Positions 23,407-38,925 of a DNA stretch of 64,000 nucleotides are shown here, in pieces. Within the stretch, counting starts at the first letter, position 1. Every line of letters starts with the position of its first letter. The stretch lies in the IMG/VR virus record IMGVR_UViG_3300023184_000070, positions 1 through 64,000 of that record. The stretch is one strand, 5' to 3'. The notes beneath the pieces are model-generated. The model worked only from the letters and a program-made list of their open reading frames with translations, did not search any database and had not been told where the DNA came from. Origin of the DNA: a virus. Both the position numbers and the translations under genes were made by a program.

Positions 23407-23892
23407 TTAAACTGGATTTGGATCTTGTGATGTAAACGACGTAATCCACCATGTGCCAGTTCCGGCATCAAATGTGAAGGTCCAAACGGCATTTCCCCAT
23501 TCACGACTGTAGTCAGTGGTGTCTTCAATAGTAGTTTCGCCGCCCGGTTGCATGTAGATGCTGTGATATGTTTGAGCATTTACAGCGTCACGTTTGATAA
23601 TGTATTGTTTTCCGTCTACCGCAGTTTGTGGTAGATATACAGTAGTGCCACGATAGGTTACTGGATTAACAATAACAAAGTGATCCGATGGCAGTAGAGT
23701 ATATTCATAATCATCGTCATTTGCTGTAACTCTTGTAACTTGTACTACACCAGTTACGCCGCCTGCTGATACACCATCGCTAACACGCAAAGCTGGTGTT
23801 GATGGATCATAAAACATGTCACCTGCGTGACCAACGTGAGTGTCGGCGTTGTCATTTACATGCTTGTAATGTATTTTTCTTGTGTTTGCCAT
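23407..23892 (-). CDS. Virion-associated hypothetical protein, 161 aa
   Basis: AAGGAG SD; GHAGDMFYD...LRVSDGVSAGG N-terminal motif and VYLP...DGKQYIIK fibre-type C-terminal module. Confidence 0.7.
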   Translation of the reverse strand: MANTRKIHYKHVNDNADTHVGHAGDMFYDPSTPALRVSDGVSAGGVTGVVQVTRVTANDDDYEYTLLPSDHFVIVNPVTYRGTTVYLPQTAVDGKQYIIKRDAVNAQTYHSIYMQPGGETTIEDTTDYSREWGNAVWTFTFDAGTGTWWITSFTSQDPNPV

Positions 23893-23985
23893 TTTGTTTT
23901 CTCCTTGTGAAACACGGCGTTCTAGGCCGTACGCGGTTGGATTTCCGCATAAGACTCACACCATGTGAATCGTACTAGATATTTA
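23893..23985 (-). promoter_or_regulatory. Late promoter (TAAATA) plus three-hairpin structured 5' leader
   Basis: TAAATA 23980-23985; stems 23953-60/23964-71, 23930-36/23945-51 and 23914-18/23926-30; SD 23901-23906. Confidence 0.6.
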
Positions 23986-33701: not shown

Positions 33702-33727
33702 TATAAATATAGTGTATCAATTATTTA
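33702..33727. promoter_or_regulatory. Two opposed late promoters (TATAAATA plus 33702-33709; TAAATA minus 33722-33727)
   Basis: Both motifs lie in the 52-bp gap between the divergent tape-measure and gp26-like genes. Confidence 0.65.
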
Positions 33728-33741
33728 CCGGAATCAAAAAC

Positions 33742-34605
33742 ATGGAAACAACTACTTTACCGAATACCGCCGCTAATCCCTTAGCCAAGTACTTTAGACA
33801 ACCTGCAATTTACATTAAACTACCTGGGGCAGGCAAATTCTGGGCAGAAGGGTCACTGAATTTGCCAGTCAACGGTGAAATTCCCATTTATCCCATGACT
33901 ACTAGGGATGAAGTTACGCTGAGAACTCCAGATGCACTCATGAATGGTAGCGGTGTGGTCAGTGTAATCGAAAGCTGCTGCCCAAACATTGTTGATGCGT
34001 GGAAAACCCCCACAGTAGATGTAGATGCTATATTGATTGCTATTCGCATTGCCAGCTACGGACAGCAGATGGATGTCGAAACCACTTGCCCGCACTGCAA
34101 CGAAAAAAACAGTCATGCGCTGGATTTGATCAATTGTCTAGGCGGAATACAATGCCCCGATTATTCACACCCAATTGCAATTGACGAATTAAAAATAAAA
34201 CTTAAATCTCAAATCTATTTTGGGTCAAATCAGACTGATGCTATCAATTTTGAAGAACAAAAAATGATACAGGCCGTAAATGACTCTGCTATGGCAGAAC
34301 CAGACAAGATGCAGCTAGTGGCCAAGAGCATGCAGCGCATAATTGAAATTGGGCTCGAGTCTGCTGCTCATTGCACAGAATACATTGAAATTGAAGATGG
34401 TACTCGAGTACGTGATGTTGAGTACATCAAAGAGTTTTATAATAATGCCAAAGGCAGCATATTAAAAACAGTCAAGGATCACCTGACTAAGTTTAATCAA
34501 CAGGGTGCAGTCCCATCCCAACCAGTAGCTTGCTATGAGTGTAAGAAAGAATTCACAGTACCATTACAGTTTGATTACGCAAGTTTTTTCGCGCAAGGCT
34601 TTTGA
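33742..34605 (+). CDS. Baseplate hub assembly protein (gp26-like) / putative tail assembly chaperone, 287 aa
   Basis: NPLAKYFRQPAIYIKLP, MTTRDE, DAILIAIRIASYG, two CxxC motifs (CPHC, CYEC), C-terminal SFF. ATG 33742 preferred over GTG 33712. Confidence 0.75.
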   Translation: METTTLPNTAANPLAKYFRQPAIYIKLPGAGKFWAEGSLNLPVNGEIPIYPMTTRDEVTLRTPDALMNGSGVVSVIESCCPNIVDAWKTPTVDVDAILIAIRIASYGQQMDVETTCPHCNEKNSHALDLINCLGGIQCPDYSHPIAIDELKIKLKSQIYFGSNQTDAINFEEQKMIQAVNDSAMAEPDKMQLVAKSMQRIIEIGLESAAHCTEYIEIEDGTRVRDVEYIKEFYNNAKGSILKTVKDHLTKFNQQGAVPSQPVACYECKKEFTVPLQFDYASFFAQGF

Positions 34606-34820: not shown

Positions 34821-34928
34821 TCGCATAACTTATCCAATTTAACCTGCAGAATAAACTACTATACAATCAAGAAACCCATCTACCTAAATAAATTTACCAC
34901 TAACAGTGGTTTATAAGGAGATTACAAG

Positions 34929-35162
34929 ATGGATATTCTTGCAAATGTAAAAAAATGGGCTAGCAATCTAGCAGACGCAGGCGTGAGCGTAATTGCTCTA
35001 GCCATTGTACTGGAAATTTTATTTAAAGGGACTGTAATCCCATTTTTCCCAGTAGGTTCAGTTATCACTAACGTGACCACAATCATCGGTGCTTTAGGTT
35101 CCCAAGGACTAGTAGGACTAGTTGCTATTTGGGTATTATACGGTATCTGGAAAAACAAGTAA
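34929..35162 (+). CDS. Small membrane protein, 77 aa
   Basis: TAAATA 34885-34890, TAAGGAG SD, two hydrophobic segments, basic C-terminus. Confidence 0.75.
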   Translation: MDILANVKKWASNLADAGVSVIALAIVLEILFKGTVIPFFPVGSVITNVTTIIGALGSQGLVGLVAIWVLYGIWKNK

Positions 35163-35176
35163 ACTTGTATCTAGCA

Positions 35177-35215
35177 AAAGAAAGACAACATGCTCATTTG
35201 TGTGTTTCTTTCTTT
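35177..35215. terminator. Possible bidirectional terminator hairpin
   Basis: aaagaaaga(35177-85)...tctttcttt(35207-15) between convergent units. Confidence 0.5.
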
Positions 35216-35226
35216 ATCTCTATATA

Positions 35227-35620
35227 AGACTTCTTACAGAAGTCTGTTGTTTCGCTATCGCTCACAACATTATTCTCTATCTTTAATGGATTAGTATCAT
35301 CCAGATTAACTGGTCATAATTCACCGTATGCACGGTGAATTGAAAAGGCATCATCCGAGTAGCCCAGTCATCTATTCTAATGAGATTGCCTTGCGGCGCG
35401 GAGGCGGTTGACCGGTACCCCCTACTCAAGCTTCACATATCAACGGAACCCTAGTGATCCGGAATAGACCCAAATCCTATAGGCTGAGGTTGCATCTTTT
35501 TCGCATAGCCTCAATCATTTATTACCTTAAGTTAGTAATTTTCTTTGGCATCCAAGATCCGGACCGGGTATCTCACCGTTCCTCAATGGAGCGTGGCCTA
35601 ACCACGCACAGCGCCTATGA
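35227..35620 (-). ncRNA. Candidate large structured non-coding RNA (family unassigned)
   Basis: ORF-free gap with more than ten complementary segment pairs, several mutually crossing, a GCAA tetraloop on the minus strand and a perfect 10-bp hairpin. Strand and ends are inferred. Confidence 0.7.
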
Positions 35621-35624
35621 TGTA

Positions 35625-36083
35625 TTAACTTGTTGGACTTTGTGTCTTTGGGAGATTGATTTTGTTTATAATGTGTGAGCCATGTACCCTGCAACTTATC
35701 TGTCCATTATAATAATCTTGTGACTCTAAGACCTTGCGGTCAAATTGTTCACGTGCTTCAATGTAGGAGCACAGGGCTTTTGATGAGCAGTAGCACAAGA
35801 TCTCTCTCTGGAACTTGTCTGCCCCCAGCAATTCTACATCCCGCCGCAACTCATCGTTGCTGCCGTAGTATTCTTGCCAGTCACTGTCGATCTTGCTGCG
35901 TATCTTCTTTTTCTTCTTGATCCCGTTCTTTTGCTTGACCACACGATATGTGGTCTTGGCAAATTTGGCTAGCTTTTTGCCCACGTACTTTCTGTCTGTG
36001 GCGGTATTTGTGATAAGATACACAAAACCTACACAGTCTTCGGGTAATTGTTCAACGGGCATATTCTGATAGAACCAAGTCAT
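35625..36083 (-). CDS. Stand-alone GIY-YIG (Seg-like) endonuclease, 152 aa
   Basis: GFVYLITN...KYVGKK (GIY-YIG variant), YYGS, FQREIL, IEAREQ (Glu) and YYN; Lys-rich insertion; no C-terminal DNA-binding domain. Confidence 0.8.
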   Translation of the reverse strand: MTWFYQNMPVEQLPEDCVGFVYLITNTATDRKYVGKKLAKFAKTTYRVVKQKNGIKKKKKIRSKIDSDWQEYYGSNDELRRDVELLGADKFQREILCYCSSKALCSYIEAREQFDRKVLESQDYYNGQISCRVHGSHIINKINLPKTQSPTS

Positions 36084-36142: not shown

Positions 36143-37912
36143 TTATACAGTTTCAACATCGGTATTGTAGGTGGTAAACCCATTTTCTTTGACCACAGTC
36201 AAGATGTTGTTGACCCGCCCGGCTAGTTCATCTTTGTGACTGACCAGCCAAATGCTCTTGTGAGCTTCTCTGCTCATGCGTTTTAGGATAGCCAGTGCGC
36301 TTTCCACACCCGATGCATCCATACCCGAGTCTACTAGTTCATCAATGAACAAAAGATTGACAGGTTGATACAAACTTTCCCAAACATCACGGAACGCCCA
36401 CGACAGACTCAGTATCAGTCTATTGCGCTCGCCCCGGCTGAGGTTGTCAAAGTCTAACTCTCTGCCCAATTCAGTTATGCTCACTGTGAGATCGTTGTTG
36501 AACTTGACCACATGTGGCAAGCCAATACGGTCCAAGTACTGCCCTAGTCTTGCGTTCAAATAACTTAAATTTTGATCAATAATGCGTTTGCGTATAAAAC
36601 TGTCTTTGTTGGTCAACAGTTTCAATAAAAATTCTTGATGATCCCGGACATTGCCTAACTCGTTGATAGTGTCGTAAGTAACAGTCTCTAAGGCCTGTGT
36701 GCTCATTTCTTCTATCTGTTCTGCATATGGATCTGCTTCTGCGTGTTTGCTGGCAATTTGGCTTAATATATTAGCCATGCTGCTGCGATGTTCAAATGCA
36801 TCGCTCTCGCGATCGTAGTAGACTCGAGGCTGCGCACCTGCCGCGCCTATTTCTGCTAGCGCACCAGTCAGTTCAATCCATTGACCGTTGGTGGCCAATA
36901 CCTGTAGTGCAGCTTCTTGTAATTCTTTTTGTTTCTTGGTCATGGCAGTCGCATGATCACCATCGTGCAGATCCTGCCCACATGCATGACATCGGTGATC
37001 CTCTAGTGCTGCAATCTCACGTTGCAGTCGTTCAACTACTTTGTTTTCGCGATCCTCGTCCAGCTCGGCACGTTTAACGGCCTTGGTTAGGTCAGAGATA
37101 TCTTTCACCTGCTGATTGTATTCTGTTAGCGCCTTGTGTGCTGCCAGCTCAGCTTCGATATCTATTAGACTCAACTCGTCGTAGCCCTTTTGCAAGTATG
37201 CTAAATCGCTGTCGTGCTTCTTCTGCCACAACACCTGTCTACGCTTAAAACTTTCAATCTGTTCTTGTATGCGATGGTTGGCATCTGTCACTGCTTTGAT
37301 GCGGAACTCTTCTTGCTGTATAGCATCTTTAGTGGCTTTGTTTAGTTCTTTAAGACGCTCTGCTTTTTCGCTTAGTACTGTAATGCCCAGCAATTGTTCA
37401 ATAATAGTGCGCTGATCGTTGGCTTTCAGGCTGAGAAACGGCTCGGTATAGGTGTTTAATGCTACGATATGGCGGAACATATCCCAGCTCATGCCCAGCA
37501 TGCGTTCTATGTCTGCTTGAGTTTCTCTGCTGTCGCCCTGACTCTCGTCGGTGATCTCACGCTCAACATTGCCTACATAAAAGGCCATGGTGTTGGGCTT
37601 GCGACCACGCTCAATACGATAGTCAGTGCCGTCCTTCTCAAACTCAACAGTGACAATCATGCCCTTGCCGTTGGTTTTGTTGATCAGGTTGTCTTTGCGT
37701 ATGTTGGTCAGTGCAGCACCATACAGGGCATAGCTGAGTGCATTGATGATAGTGGTCTTGCCGGTACCGTTCCTACTGCCAGAATCATCCCCGCCTAGAT
37801 CAATGTTTTCACCCAGGACCAGTGTGAGATCCTTGCGGTCAAAGTCCACAGCCTGCGTGACATTGCCCACGCTCATGAAATTCTTAACAGTCAAATTCTT
37901 GATACGGATCAT
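36143..37912 (-). CDS. gp46: Recombination endonuclease ATPase subunit (gp46, Rad50/SbcC-like)
   Basis: Walker A NGTGKT, CHAC zinc hook, LSRGE signature, LLFIDE Walker B, VSH. Confidence 0.95.
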   Translation of the reverse strand: MIRIKNLTVKNFMSVGNVTQAVDFDRKDLTLVLGENIDLGGDDSGSRNGTGKTTIINALSYALYGAALTNIRKDNLINKTNGKGMIVTVEFEKDGTDYRIERGRKPNTMAFYVGNVEREITDESQGDSRETQADIERMLGMSWDMFRHIVALNTYTEPFLSLKANDQRTIIEQLLGITVLSEKAERLKELNKATKDAIQQEEFRIKAVTDANHRIQEQIESFKRRQVLWQKKHDSDLAYLQKGYDELSLIDIEAELAAHKALTEYNQQVKDISDLTKAVKRAELDEDRENKVVERLQREIAALEDHRCHACGQDLHDGDHATAMTKKQKELQEAALQVLATNGQWIELTGALAEIGAAGAQPRVYYDRESDAFEHRSSMANILSQIASKHAEADPYAEQIEEMSTQALETVTYDTINELGNVRDHQEFLLKLLTNKDSFIRKRIIDQNLSYLNARLGQYLDRIGLPHVVKFNNDLTVSITELGRELDFDNLSRGERNRLILSLSWAFRDVWESLYQPVNLLFIDELVDSGMDASGVESALAILKRMSREAHKSIWLVSHKDELAGRVNNILTVVKENGFTTYNTDVETV

Positions 37913-38925
37913 AGATTTCTATAGATGTCTAGCAGCAGATTTGAATTAAACTTGTCGCTGGTGATGTTGGTTATCTGGCTGGTAACAATCTGGTCAACAC
38001 TTTCAAACTGTATGTTACCCAGCATAATGTTCTCGCCAAGATCAATTTCCTTTTGCGGAATCAAACTGATCTCTCGTAGACGATATGTGTCAATAAAAGT
38101 TTCTTTGATAAATGTAGCTTCTTCGTAGCTGATATCAATGTCGATATTGATTCTGCAATGCATACCTGGCAGCAGCATGGCTTCGGTGTGATTTAGCACG
38201 TCACTCAGCTTGAACACACGATACCGGGGTTGATCGGGCCAAGCATGATACACAGGGTCTTTACCCCATTCTAAAATTGTAAGTCCACGATCGTCGTCAC
38301 CAGCATCGGCATAGTTGTGCGGAAAGCAGTTGCCAATGTAGGTGATGTTCTTCTGTGTCTGTCGCTTGTGGAAGTGACCAGTAAACACATGATCAAAGTT
38401 GTTGAAGTGTTCTCTGCGCACCTCACCATGATCTGGCATGGCAACCATGGCGTTCATCAAGTATCCAGGCAGTTCAAAGTGCCCAAACATGTATTTGGCT
38501 GATAGCTTGGGGATTCGCTTGTGATCGTCCCCAACAAGCCAAGGAGCGATAACCACATCCCCACTAGCAAACCAATCGTTAACAATTTGAATGTTCGGGA
38601 GGTGACGAGCCCAGTCAACCGATTGGATATCACGTTTATCGCGATAATACAGATCATGGTTGCCGGGAATAAAATAAACACGATCAAAGTTATCATTTAA
38701 ATGCTCTAGTGCCCTAAGACTATAGTTCAAGGTTACGATGTTGATGCTGGCTCTGTTGTTGTGCCAATCACCAAGAAACATGGCTGTTTCGCAACCTTCC
38801 GACTTGGCCTTGGCAGTGGCCCATTTGACAAAATTCAAACAGTCGTCGTTGTGTACTTGACTGTTGGACTTTAGACCAAAGTGTATATCTGTAAAAATTG
38901 CGGCTTTTTTAAATAGATTAGTCAT
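37909..38925 (-). CDS. gp47: Recombination endonuclease nuclease subunit (gp47, Mre11/SbcD-like)
   Basis: DIHFG, LGDW, GNHD, GHFE and GHFH phosphoesterase motifs. Confidence 0.95.
   Translation of the reverse strand: MTNLFKKAAIFTDIHFGLKSNSQVHNDDCLNFVKWATAKAKSEGCETAMFLGDWHNNRASINIVTLNYSLRALEHLNDNFDRVYFIPGNHDLYYRDKRDIQSVDWARHLPNIQIVNDWFASGDVVIAPWLVGDDHKRIPKLSAKYMFGHFELPGYLMNAMVAMPDHGEVRREHFNNFDHVFTGHFHKRQTQKNITYIGNCFPHNYADAGDDDRGLTILEWGKDPVYHAWPDQPRYRVFKLSDVLNHTEAMLLPGMHCRINIDIDISYEEATFIKETFIDTYRLREISLIPQKEIDLGENIMLGNIQFESVDQIVTSQITNITSDKFNSNLLLDIYRNL

What the first reader, a model, noticed from the sequence alone, without database searches (positions are those of the whole stretch)
35227..35620. 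Ornate ~400-nt candidate ncRNA with multiple crossing long-range pairings
Seen (plus coordinates): the only large ORF-free gap in a densely coding window. Local hairpins: 35591-96/35602-07, 35542-48/35552-57, 35521-25/35535-39, 35485-89/35509-13, GCC-GCAA-GGC tetraloop 35388-97 (minus strand), perfect 10-bp 35318-27/35332-41. Long-range complements: 35613-18/35479-84, 35576-80/35442-46, 35570-75/35381-86, 35563-67/35412-16, 35462-68/35371-77, 35422-27/35357-62, 35364-68/35309-13, 35409-13/35312-16. Three adjacent 5' segments pair with three separate 3' regions in crossing order, implying pseudoknots. GGAUGAU and UCCGGAUC each occur twice. I found no group I/II intron, RNase P, tmRNA or tRNA signature. 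Inference: a large structured phage RNA of GOLLD/ROOL-like complexity, possibly a new class. Individual 5-6 bp matches can arise by chance; the density is the signal.
Basis: partly seen in the sequence, partly recalled or inferred. Interest (0 to 1): 0.88.

Follow-up and report, generated by a model that had tools for sequence, protein, structure and literature searches.

The report
Twin-box structured RNA of lake phages
The gene-free gap encodes a real, roughly 390-base, doubly knotted non-coding RNA shared by many uncultured freshwater T4-like phages; it is an uncatalogued sibling of an orphan database motif, and its job is still unknown.

Summary
The gap is real and holds a conserved structured RNA on the MINUS strand (about 35620 to 35227). 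It lies directly behind a SegE-like GIY-YIG nuclease gene of an uncultured T4-like phage. A 19-base core word of it occurs in at least 120 IMG/VR contigs, giving 128 distinct full-length copies. A 14-helix model with two pseudoknots is backed by compensatory changes, and G-U pairs outnumber A-C 4:1, which favours the minus strand. The repeated GGAUGAU is the most striking feature. The two copies, about 55 nt apart, stay identical while changing at least 38 times across the family, and I found no complementary partner. This copy hits no Rfam family. In a sister type the 5' third is Rfam RF01718 (Polynucleobacter-1), while the shared 3' core is uncatalogued. RNA and nuclease each occur without the other, so the nuclease looks like a homing-type neighbour, not a partner. 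Function is unknown. My best guess is a trans-acting RNA that shows two identical sites to one reader. This scan found the family before on other DNA (409 notes, at least 290 genomes).

The parts
35227..35620 (-). Whole conserved structured RNA (about 394 nt, read 35620 -> 35227)
   Evidence: The conserved block in close relatives starts just after the SegE stop codon and ends with hairpin P12. The structure model was scored. The strand follows from G-U 417 against A-C 103.
35591..35607 (-). P1 hairpin (35607-02 / 35596-91)
   Evidence: 68 of 68 type-A rows have a hairpin of at least 5 bp here, with 55 distinct sequences. The G-C to G-U to A-U path is seen.
35551..35590 (-). P2 (35590-87 / 35554-51), enclosing P3 (35582-76 / 35567-61; 8-nt loop UGAGAUAC)
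   Evidence: helices 2-4: 94-97% paired, and 8 of 10 pairs change on both sides.
35521..35539 (-). P4 hairpin with the conserved 9-nt loop UAACUUAAG
   Evidence: helix 5: all 5 pairs change on both sides.
35486..35512 (-). P5 (35512-09 / 35489-86) with inner stem 35505-03 / 35493-91 and loop GAAAAAGAU
   Evidence: helices 6-8: 96-100% paired, with up to 35 double-changed cells at one pair.
35453..35478 (-). P6 hairpin (35478-70 / 35462-53); its loop forms PK2
   Evidence: helix 9: 98.6% paired, and 5 of 8 pairs change on both sides.
35371..35468 (-). Pseudoknot PK2: P6 loop 35468-63 pairs with 35376-71
   Evidence: helix 11: 5 of 6 pairs change on both sides. Across both types, a sequence's own 7-mer matches at 6 of 7 or better in 75 of 116, against 137 of 1085 for other sequences' 7-mers.
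35407..35444 (-). Pseudoknot PK1: GUUGA 35444-40 pairs with UCAAC 35411-07
   Evidence: Invariant within type A (helix 12). Across 127 copies the closing pair is A-U 70, U-A 51, C-G 2, G-C 1 and unpaired 3.
35401..35419 (-). Invariant 19-nt core GGUACCGGUCAACCGCCUC (family hallmark)
35381..35428 (-). P7 (35428-25 / 35384-81), enclosing P8 (35422-18 / 35404-00) and P9 (35397-95 / 35390-88, GCAA loop)
   Evidence: helices 13-16. P7's first pair is U-A 36 / A-U 32. P9 pairs show 7, 12 and 40 double changes.
35350..35356 (-). Twin box 1, GGAUGAU
   Evidence: see the full report.
35296..35302 (-). Twin box 2, GGAUGAU
   Evidence: Identical to box 1 in 109 of 121 copies; the other 12 are slips of my pattern. 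Shuffled partners give a mean of 20 and a maximum of 33.
35319..35340 (-). P10, a 9-10-bp hairpin between the two boxes
   Evidence: helix 17: 95.9% paired, and 5 of 9 pairs change on both sides. L002 carries a fully compensated version.
35227..35268 (-). P11 (35268-64 / 35250-46, inner 35261-60 / 35255-54) and terminal hairpin P12 (35245-38 / 35234-27)
   Evidence: helices 18-20. P12 is 91.7% paired, with 7 of 8 pairs changed on both sides. P11 is offset by one column in the alignment but covaries by eye.
35625..36083 (-). Neighbour gene: 152-aa SegE-like GIY-YIG nuclease, catalytic domain only; its stop codon abuts the RNA
   Evidence: Pfam PF19835, E 2.5e-32, full profile 1-123. It lies upstream on the same strand in 118 of 128 RNA loci.

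Best explanation
A stand-alone, trans-acting structured non-coding RNA gene of uncultured freshwater T4-like phages, encoded on the minus strand.

SHOWN:
- It is conserved and folded into about 14 helices tied by two pseudoknots around an invariant 19-nt core.
- It carries two single-stranded 7-nt boxes, flanking hairpin P10, that always have the same sequence as each other.

INFERRED:
- It is transcribed as the tail of the gp47-gp46-segE transcript, or processed from it, because no promoter or terminator separates it from the nuclease gene.
- The knotted core is a scaffold that presents the two identical boxes to a single kind of reader acting in trans.
- The SegE-like nuclease is a homing-type selfish neighbour that has settled beside a highly conserved RNA gene. 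It is not a subunit.
For: Reality and strand:
- Compensatory changes are seen with the first distant relative.
- On 71 type-A copies, 87.3% of cells pair against 80.0% in shuffles (0 of 500 reach it).
- 59 of 84 pairs change on both sides against a shuffle mean of 40.8 (0 of 500). Slid controls pair at 36-50%.
- G-U 417 against A-C 103.
- PK1 and PK2 covary across both types.

Not coding: the longest ORF inside the RNA has a median of 32-51 aa, and loop lengths vary freely.

Twin boxes:
- They are identical in 109 of 121 copies (shuffle mean 20).
- The best mutual-information partner of each variable box position is the same position of the other box, at 0.83-1.26 bits except box position 7 in type A. 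There the other box's position comes second (0.36 bits) behind an unrelated column (0.41). Elsewhere the next-best column scores 0.54 or less.
- There are at least 38 changes of box state on a tree of 105 neighbouring nuclease proteins (shuffles about 63-66).

Independence from the nuclease:
- 10 of 128 RNA loci lack the SegE-like gene. Some carry a PD-(D/E)XK nuclease (PF24608), a NUMOD3 protein or unrelated genes instead.
- The nuclease family occurs in 494 cultured-phage records. In 5 of 5 inspected it sits in different neighbourhoods with gaps of 0-148 nt behind it.

Co-transcription:
- No sigma-70-like site lies between the ORF and the RNA.
- An exact TATAAATA occurs in 1 of 133 loci.
- Weak: contigs of relatives in 4 RNA libraries from 4 lake or freshwater studies cover the RNA, and two of them bridge the ORF-RNA junction. 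DNA carry-over is not excluded.
Against: - No reader was found, and no transcript ends, strand or abundance could be read, because only contigs were available.
- The tight adjacency (118 of 128 loci; 104 of the 119 nuclease ORFs found upstream abut the RNA) would also fit a 3'-UTR role or a partnership with the nuclease.
- Identity of the boxes could in principle be kept by recombination of old haplotypes rather than by a reader. The 38 'changes' may partly be recombination, since the RNA type itself changes 11 times on the same tree.
- The shuffle control does not keep relatedness, and the structure was derived from these same sequences.
Confidence: 0.5

Rival explanations
1. A cis-acting 3' untranslated element of the SegE-like mRNA. 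It would act as a folded cap that blocks 3' exonucleases, or as a regulator of nuclease expression, not as an independent RNA.
For: - The RNA starts right after the stop codon. 104 of 119 nuclease ORFs end 189-472 nt before the core word, so they abut the RNA.
- No promoter-like site lies between them.
- RNA-library contigs bridge the junction (weak).
Against: - A 390-nt, doubly knotted, highly conserved fold is far more than mRNA protection needs.
- The RNA persists behind unrelated genes in 10 of 128 loci.
- Close homologues of the nuclease (65-79% identity) do without it: 10 of 74 loci have a long ORF in its place, as do 5 of 5 cultured phages inspected.
Confidence: 0.15
2. A ribozyme or self-processing RNA in which the two identical boxes are matched processing sites. 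Cutting at both would release or excise the roughly 55-nt P10 module.
For: - Matched, co-varying direct repeats flank a stable hairpin at a spacing of 47-64 nt, mode 55.
- The invariant core and two pseudoknots are typical of catalytic RNAs.
Against: - No Rfam ribozyme or intron model matches.
- No joint between the boxes was reported in the contigs of the four RNA libraries (table 5). Contigs are poor evidence for this.
- Nothing here tests chemistry.
Confidence: 0.1
3. A partner of the neighbouring minimal GIY-YIG nuclease. The RNA would supply the target recognition that the missing DNA-binding domain would otherwise give, as a guide or cofactor.
For: - The nuclease is catalytic-domain-only, at 142-152 aa.
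- It lies directly upstream in 118 of 128 loci.
- The boxes change quickly, as a guide might.
Against: - Each occurs without the other.
- Different nuclease families occupy the same slot (PF24608, NUMOD3), as expected for homing endonucleases competing for a hot spot.
- No complement of the box was found in the RNA, within +-3.2 kb, or in 1.2 Mb of flanks. The own box scored 0.058 per kb against 0.057 per kb for the other variants.
- A 7-nt word is too short for a guide.
Confidence: 0.05
4. A DNA-level element only, such as a homing-endonuclease target, an origin or a packaging site, with no functional RNA.
For: - An invariant 19-bp word lies next to nuclease genes.
- P12 also reads as a terminator-like site for the plus strand.
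Against: - 59 of 84 pairs show compensatory changes, and G-U wobbles are strand-asymmetric at 4:1. This is not expected for double-stranded DNA sites.
- The pseudoknots covary.
Confidence: 0.04

Closest known systems
Polynucleobacter-1 RNA motif (Rfam RF01718; Weinberg et al. 2010, PMC2864571; I saw only its table entry)
   Same: - Sister copies (type B) of this RNA carry RF01718 as their first 141 nt, at 110.5, 102.5 and 81.7 bits against a cut-off of 37.
- They then continue into the same core, PK1, PK2, twin boxes and P10-P12 as the window's RNA.
- The habitat matches the table entry in that paper: fresh water/estuary.
   Different: - The window's own 5' domain does not match RF01718, either by covariance model (no hit at E<=10) or by profile HMM (0 of 71).
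- Rfam models only the 5' third.
- The paper's table marks it 'y' for cis-regulatory. Here it is the head of a 390-470-nt RNA at the 3' end of an operon.
GOLLD and ROOL, large ornate RNAs often found in phages (recalled; Rfam models searched)
   Same: A large, multi-pseudoknotted, phage-borne RNA of unknown function, with no obligatory protein partner known.
   Different: No match to either model. It is about 390 nt against roughly 600-800 nt (recalled). No tRNA lies within 3.2 kb in any of 149 loci, whereas GOLLD and ROOL often sit beside tRNAs (recalled).
T4 segB in the tRNA / stable RNA C and D region (recalled from the T4 literature; not read here)
   Same: A free-standing GIY-YIG Seg-type endonuclease gene sits inside or beside a cluster of conserved stable-RNA genes. 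Two relatives that share the 77-aa neighbour gene carry tRNA arrays (13 and 10 tRNAs in those loci) on the same strand at this position.
   Different: The RNA here is a single 390-nt knotted molecule, not tRNAs or 120-140-nt RNAs. Cleavage by this nuclease was not tested.
Matched take-off and landing codons of the T4 gene 60 translational bypass (recalled; an analogy only)
   Same: Two short words about 50 nt apart must be identical rather than complementary, with a hairpin between them and a homing endonuclease gene nearby.
   Different: No conserved reading frame crosses the boxes. The spacing between GAC and box 1 varies by non-multiples of three, and the ORFs inside are short.

Membership tests
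Rfam RF01718 Polynucleobacter-1 | Covariance-model score at or above the gathering cut-off (37 bits) | tested here: not met
   The window has no hit at gathering level, nor at E<=10 in 35000-35800. Type-B relatives score 82-110 bits.
Rfam RF01718 Polynucleobacter-1 | Sequence-profile similarity of the 5' domain to RF01718-bearing copies | tested here: not met
   An nhmmer profile of the type-B 5' domain hits 0 of 71 type-A copies at E<=10. Only motif-level likeness is seen by eye: GGAA followed by a stem with an 8-nt UG..AUAC/UG..GUAG loop, and CUA.CUUAAGG.
   Window 35419-35401, with GUUGA at 35444-40. 124 of 127 copies are complementary.
   UCUAUU at 35468-63 pairs with AAUAGA at 35376-71. 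Covariation is shown.
   GGAUGAU at 35356-50 and 35302-296, 54 nt apart.
GOLLD / ROOL / HEARO / OLE and other large Rfam RNAs | Covariance-model match | tested here: not met
   No such hit at gathering level over the window, nor at E<=10 over the gap.
Group I/II intron, RNase P RNA, tmRNA, tRNA | Rfam model match, or ARAGORN detection | tested here: not met
   none. There are no flanking exons either: gp46 (589 aa) and SegE (152 aa) are complete ORFs.
Nuclease guide RNAs of the OMEGA type (recalled definition) | Obligate linkage of RNA and nuclease, and a variable guide segment with matching targets | tested here: not met
   Each occurs without the other. No target-like complement of the boxes was found.

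The most novel reading that the evidence does not exclude
The RNA is the specificity subunit of an unknown phage ribonucleoprotein. Its knotted core would dock a protein, possibly the domain-less GIY-YIG nuclease next door or its occasional replacements. Its duplicated 7-nt box would be a re-programmable address, read by base pairing with two copies of a target nucleic acid that is not encoded near the RNA. Frequent concerted switching of both boxes would then retarget the system. Twin identical boxes would be a new logic for RNA-directed recognition.
Probability: 0.05. Interest if true: 0.9.

Novelty: new variant of a known kind. Interest (0 to 1): 0.6.

Why it matters
A 390-nt, doubly pseudoknotted RNA with an invariant core, present in hundreds of uncultured T4-like lake phages, is one of the few large phage RNAs with no assigned function. 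Only the 5' third of a sister type is catalogued, as an orphan 'cis-regulatory' motif.

Covariation that keeps two boxes identical, rather than complementary, is very unusual in RNA. It points to a reader that nobody has identified.

The locus also shows a homing-type nuclease settled next to a conserved RNA gene, as segB is next to T4's tRNAs.

For the scan itself this is a repeat observation of a family it has already met many times.

Tried and rejected
KNOWN RNA CLASSES. Rfam at gathering level over the window and at E<=10 over the gap gave nothing for the RNA. The one weak line, CRISPR-DR53 at 15.5 bits and E 9.3, lies inside the nuclease ORF and is chance. Weak cow-rumen-2 lines (19-23 bits against a cut-off of 66) over the core of three relatives were judged spurious. 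ARAGORN found nothing.

RESEMBLANCES FROM MEMORY. RNase P-like, tmRNA-like, group II domain V, box C/D K-turn, CsrA GGA sites, anticodon or T-loop complements, and the 16S 3' end were considered from memory only. I dropped them because no model matched or because the box variants break the motif.

MINI-ORF. A six-codon ORF ending in box 1 was rejected: its length varies by non-multiples of three among relatives.

CULTURED PHAGES. blastn of the window's RNA and of a type-B RNA against 50,697 GenBank phage records found no match.

BACTERIAL GENOMES. The core word matched 48 genome contigs, but only 3 also carry both flanking motifs. Two of these are large contigs and one is a 1.7-kb contig, from two lake MAGs; they are probably mis-binned phage. 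The other 45 are GC-rich chance matches.

PARTNER OF THE TWIN BOXES.
- No third column has comparable mutual information.
- No complement specific to a sequence's own box lies inside the RNA: 0.01 against 0.03 per sequence for Watson-Crick 7/7, and 0.50 against 0.50 with G-U allowed.
- None lies within +-3.2 kb (0.31 against 0.32 per locus) or in 1.2 Mb of held flanks.
- Pairing between the stretch before box 1 and the stretch before box 2 is no better for a sequence's own pair than for mixed pairs (mean -5.37 against -5.73 kcal/mol).
- The long-range helices that RNAalifold drew onto the boxes do not covary.

PROMOTER. No sigma-70-like site lies before the RNA. An exact T4-late TATAAATA occurs in 1 of 133 loci.

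RNA LIBRARIES. Only assembled contigs were available, so no ends, strand or level could be read. In all four runs the bins 34871-35212 had no cover, which the tool says proves nothing. No joint at the boxes was listed.

tRNA LINK. No tRNA lies within +-3.2 kb of the RNA in any of 149 loci.

NOT DONE. No covariance model of the family was built, because the length limit of the tool would have forced it into pieces. No R-scape was run. No structure or complex prediction was made.
Full report
WHAT IS AT THE COORDINATES. The window is part of an 86.8-kb IMG/VR virus record with T4-like genes. A gp47-like phosphoesterase lies at 37909-38925(-). A gp46-like SMC/AAA ATPase lies at 36143-37912(-). A T4 baseplate-family protein lies at 33712-34605(+). 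The gap lies between two converging genes. One is a 77-aa membrane-like ORF at 34929-35162(+), which has relatives elsewhere. The other is a 152-aa ORF at 35625-36083(-) that matches the whole Pfam profile 'SegE GIY-YIG domain' (E 2.5e-32). With ORFs of at least 70 aa, 35163-35453 is the only uncovered stretch of 250 nt or more in the window. Both strands fold better than shuffles, at z -4.24 and -3.03. No tRNA or tmRNA is found. Rfam has no match in the gap, even at E<=10.

RELATIVES. A distant relative (L002), found through the 77-aa gene, conserves the 3' half of the gap and shows fully compensated hairpins. A pattern from that block found five close relatives. These already show G-C to G-U to A-U paths that only work on the minus strand. 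Together with the loci fetched, I extracted 148 full-length copies, 128 of them distinct. These are 71 'type A' (N=U, like the window), 53 'type B' (N=A) and 4 others. In genomes of 185,579 prokaryote species the word matched 48 contigs. Only 3 of them carry both flanking motifs, and all 3 are contigs of two lake MAGs, probably mis-binned phage. GenBank phages have no blastn match to either type.

STRUCTURE AND STRAND. I derived a model from RNAalifold and by eye on 71 type-A copies. It has helices P1-P12 plus two pseudoknots. On alignment A7, 87.3% of cells pair against 80.0% in shuffles (0 of 500). 59 of 84 pairs change on both sides against 40.8 (0 of 500). The covariation score is 0.265 against 0.132. 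Sliding the partners gives 36-50% pairing. Two caveats apply. The shuffles ignore relatedness. The model came from these sequences, so the slid control flatters it.

P1 and P11 look poor column by column because MAFFT offsets them. Even so, 68 of 68 rows have a hairpin of at least 5 bp at P1, in 55 different sequences. G-U cells outnumber A-C cells 417 to 103, so the RNA is on the minus strand.

PK1 (GUUGN / N'CAAC) is invariant within a type. Across 127 copies its closing pair is A-U 70, U-A 51, C-G 2, G-C 1 and unpaired 3. For PK2 (P6 loop with the 6-7 nt before RUGAC), the 7-mer comes in 37 forms. A copy's own 7-mer finds a match of 6 of 7 or better in 75 of 116 copies, against 137 of 1085 for foreign 7-mers. 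ORFs inside the RNA are short, with medians of 32-51 aa.

Five of the six local hairpins are right. 35542-48/35552-57 is not: it competes with P2. Of the eight long-range pairs, only 35462-68/35371-77 (which is PK2) has covariation. Three use strands of P3 or P7 that covary with other partners. Two are simply not conserved. Two are invariant and clash with P7 or PK1. The repeat UCCGGAUC is a peculiarity of this lineage (3 of 71).

THE TWIN BOXES. The repeat GGAUGAU (35356-50 and 35302-296) is the outstanding feature. Earlier agents of this scan had pointed it out, and I re-tested it.
- In 109 of 121 copies my pattern returns the same 7-mer for both boxes, in eight forms. The other 12 are cases where my pattern caught a neighbouring GAU. 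Shuffled partners give a mean of 20 and a maximum of 33.
- Each variable box position has its highest mutual information with the same position of the other box (0.83-1.26 bits). The exception is box position 7 in type A, where the other box's position ranks second (0.36 bits, behind an unrelated column at 0.41). Elsewhere the next-best column is 0.54 or less.
- On a FastTree of 105 neighbouring nuclease proteins the box state changes at least 38 times, against about 63-66 when shuffled. Some of this may be recombination, because the RNA type itself changes 11 times on that tree.
- The spacing is 47-64 nt, with a mode of 55.

I found no complementary partner for the boxes:
- not inside the RNA;
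- not within +-3.2 kb;
- not in 1.2 Mb of held flanks, at 0.058 against 0.057 per kb;
- not between the stretches that precede the boxes.

What keeps the boxes identical is unexplained. A common trans reader is the simplest reading.

RELATION TO KNOWN FAMILIES. Scanning small type-B loci against Rfam showed that their first 141 nt are RF01718, Polynucleobacter-1, at 110.5, 102.5 and 81.7 bits against a cut-off of 37. One paper in the library names the motif. I saw only its table entry: RNA 'y', cis-regulatory 'y', Burkholderiales and fresh water/estuary.

The window's own 5' domain is not detectable as RF01718 by covariance model or by profile HMM (0 of 71). By eye it has look-alike pieces in the same order. 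So this copy is not a member of RF01718. It is a sibling that shares the uncatalogued 3' core. GOLLD, ROOL, introns, RNase P and tmRNA are excluded as far as Rfam and ARAGORN can see.

THE NUCLEASE NEIGHBOUR. Of 128 RNA loci with at least 750 nt upstream, 118 have the SegE-like ORF upstream on the same strand. In all, 119 such ORFs were found. 104 of them abut the RNA, and 15 have another ORF in between. Among the 10 loci without it, several have a PD-(D/E)XK nuclease (PF24608, E 1.3e-26). One has a NUMOD3 protein, and others have a phosphorylase-family or unknown protein.

In the other direction, at least 592 IMG/VR stretches encode the nuclease family. Of the 80 best, 74 have sequence downstream:
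- 56 have a clear type-A or type-B RNA;
- 6 have weak partial hits, at least three of them with a Polynucleobacter-1-like head;
- 12 have none by nhmmer, and 10 of those have a 287-400-aa ORF starting at the nuclease's stop codon.

The protein has tblastn matches in 494 cultured-phage records, 339 of them Synechococcus phages. The gene under these matches is often annotated 'NAD synthetase'. In 5 of 5 records inspected it sits in different neighbourhoods, followed by gaps of 0-148 nt. A mobile, widespread nuclease next to an ultra-conserved RNA gene, sometimes replaced by other nucleases, fits homing endonucleases that use the RNA gene region as a landing site. It fits an RNA-protein machine less well.

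EXPRESSION. No promoter-like or terminator-like site separates the ORF and the RNA, and T4-late boxes are absent. Assembled contigs of relatives in four RNA libraries from four lake or freshwater studies cover the RNA. Two contigs bridge the ORF-RNA junction: X3 at 35425-36013 and X4 at 35441-35777. These are contigs, DNA carry-over is possible, and no ends or strand can be read. This is only a weak hint of co-transcription.

VERDICT. My best reading, at about 0.5, is a trans-acting scaffold RNA that presents two identical boxes to one reader. It would be made as the tail of the gp47-gp46-segE transcript, with the nuclease as a selfish neighbour. It is a new variant of a known but orphan kind. 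This scan has already reported the family many times on other DNA: 409 notes in at least 290 genomes. Those reports reached the same conclusions about Polynucleobacter-1, the twin boxes and the nuclease. I reached the Rfam link independently and re-tested the twin-box and neighbour claims here.

Noticed in passing
window 23890-23970 (-): The only Rfam hit at gathering level in the window is freshwater-2 RNA (RF02980), at 71.4 bits against a cut-off of 49.9, full length.
   Followed up: no
L003 3291-4841 and L004 3292-4378 (minus strand): Two relatives that share the 77-aa neighbour gene carry tRNA arrays (13 and 10 tRNAs per locus) where the window has the RNA. No tRNA lies within 3.2 kb of the RNA in any of 149 loci. 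The slot may be occupied by one or the other.
   Followed up: partly
L293, L295, L299, L306, L323, L328, L341, L351, L361 (just after the SegE-like gene): In these loci a 287-400-aa ORF with a hydrophobic N-terminus starts at the nuclease's stop codon (overlapping ATGA), in place of the RNA. I did not identify it.
   Followed up: no
L023 3896-4423 (-), also L053, L115, L145: A PD-(D/E)XK nuclease (PF24608, E 1.3e-26) sits directly upstream of the RNA instead of the GIY-YIG gene. This suggests that different nucleases compete for one slot.
   Followed up: partly
GenBank phages, e.g. NC_041997.1 9483-9905, KJ019152.1 150900-151340: The small GIY-YIG family has matches in 494 cultured-phage records. 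Among the 25 rows listed, the feature under the match is often labelled 'NAD synthetase', which does not fit its Pfam SegE GIY-YIG match.
   Followed up: partly
L253 and L262 (MAG Haliscomenobacter sp. EUL_031, contigs of 148 and 183 kb), L246 (MAG Flavobacteriales EUL_069): These MAG contigs carry true copies of the RNA. The two large ones have the size of T4-like phage genomes and are probably mis-binned phage.
   Followed up: no
window 35170-35215: A long, near-perfect hairpin lies between the 77-aa gene and the RNA's 3' end. It is outside the conserved RNA block and looks like a two-way terminator for the converging transcripts. The terminator scan did not flag it.
   Followed up: no
L298, L321, L322, L336 (after the SegE-like gene): Further RNA variants have a Polynucleobacter-1-like head, but my type-A and type-B profiles detect them barely or not at all. 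The family is broader than the two types analysed.
   Followed up: no
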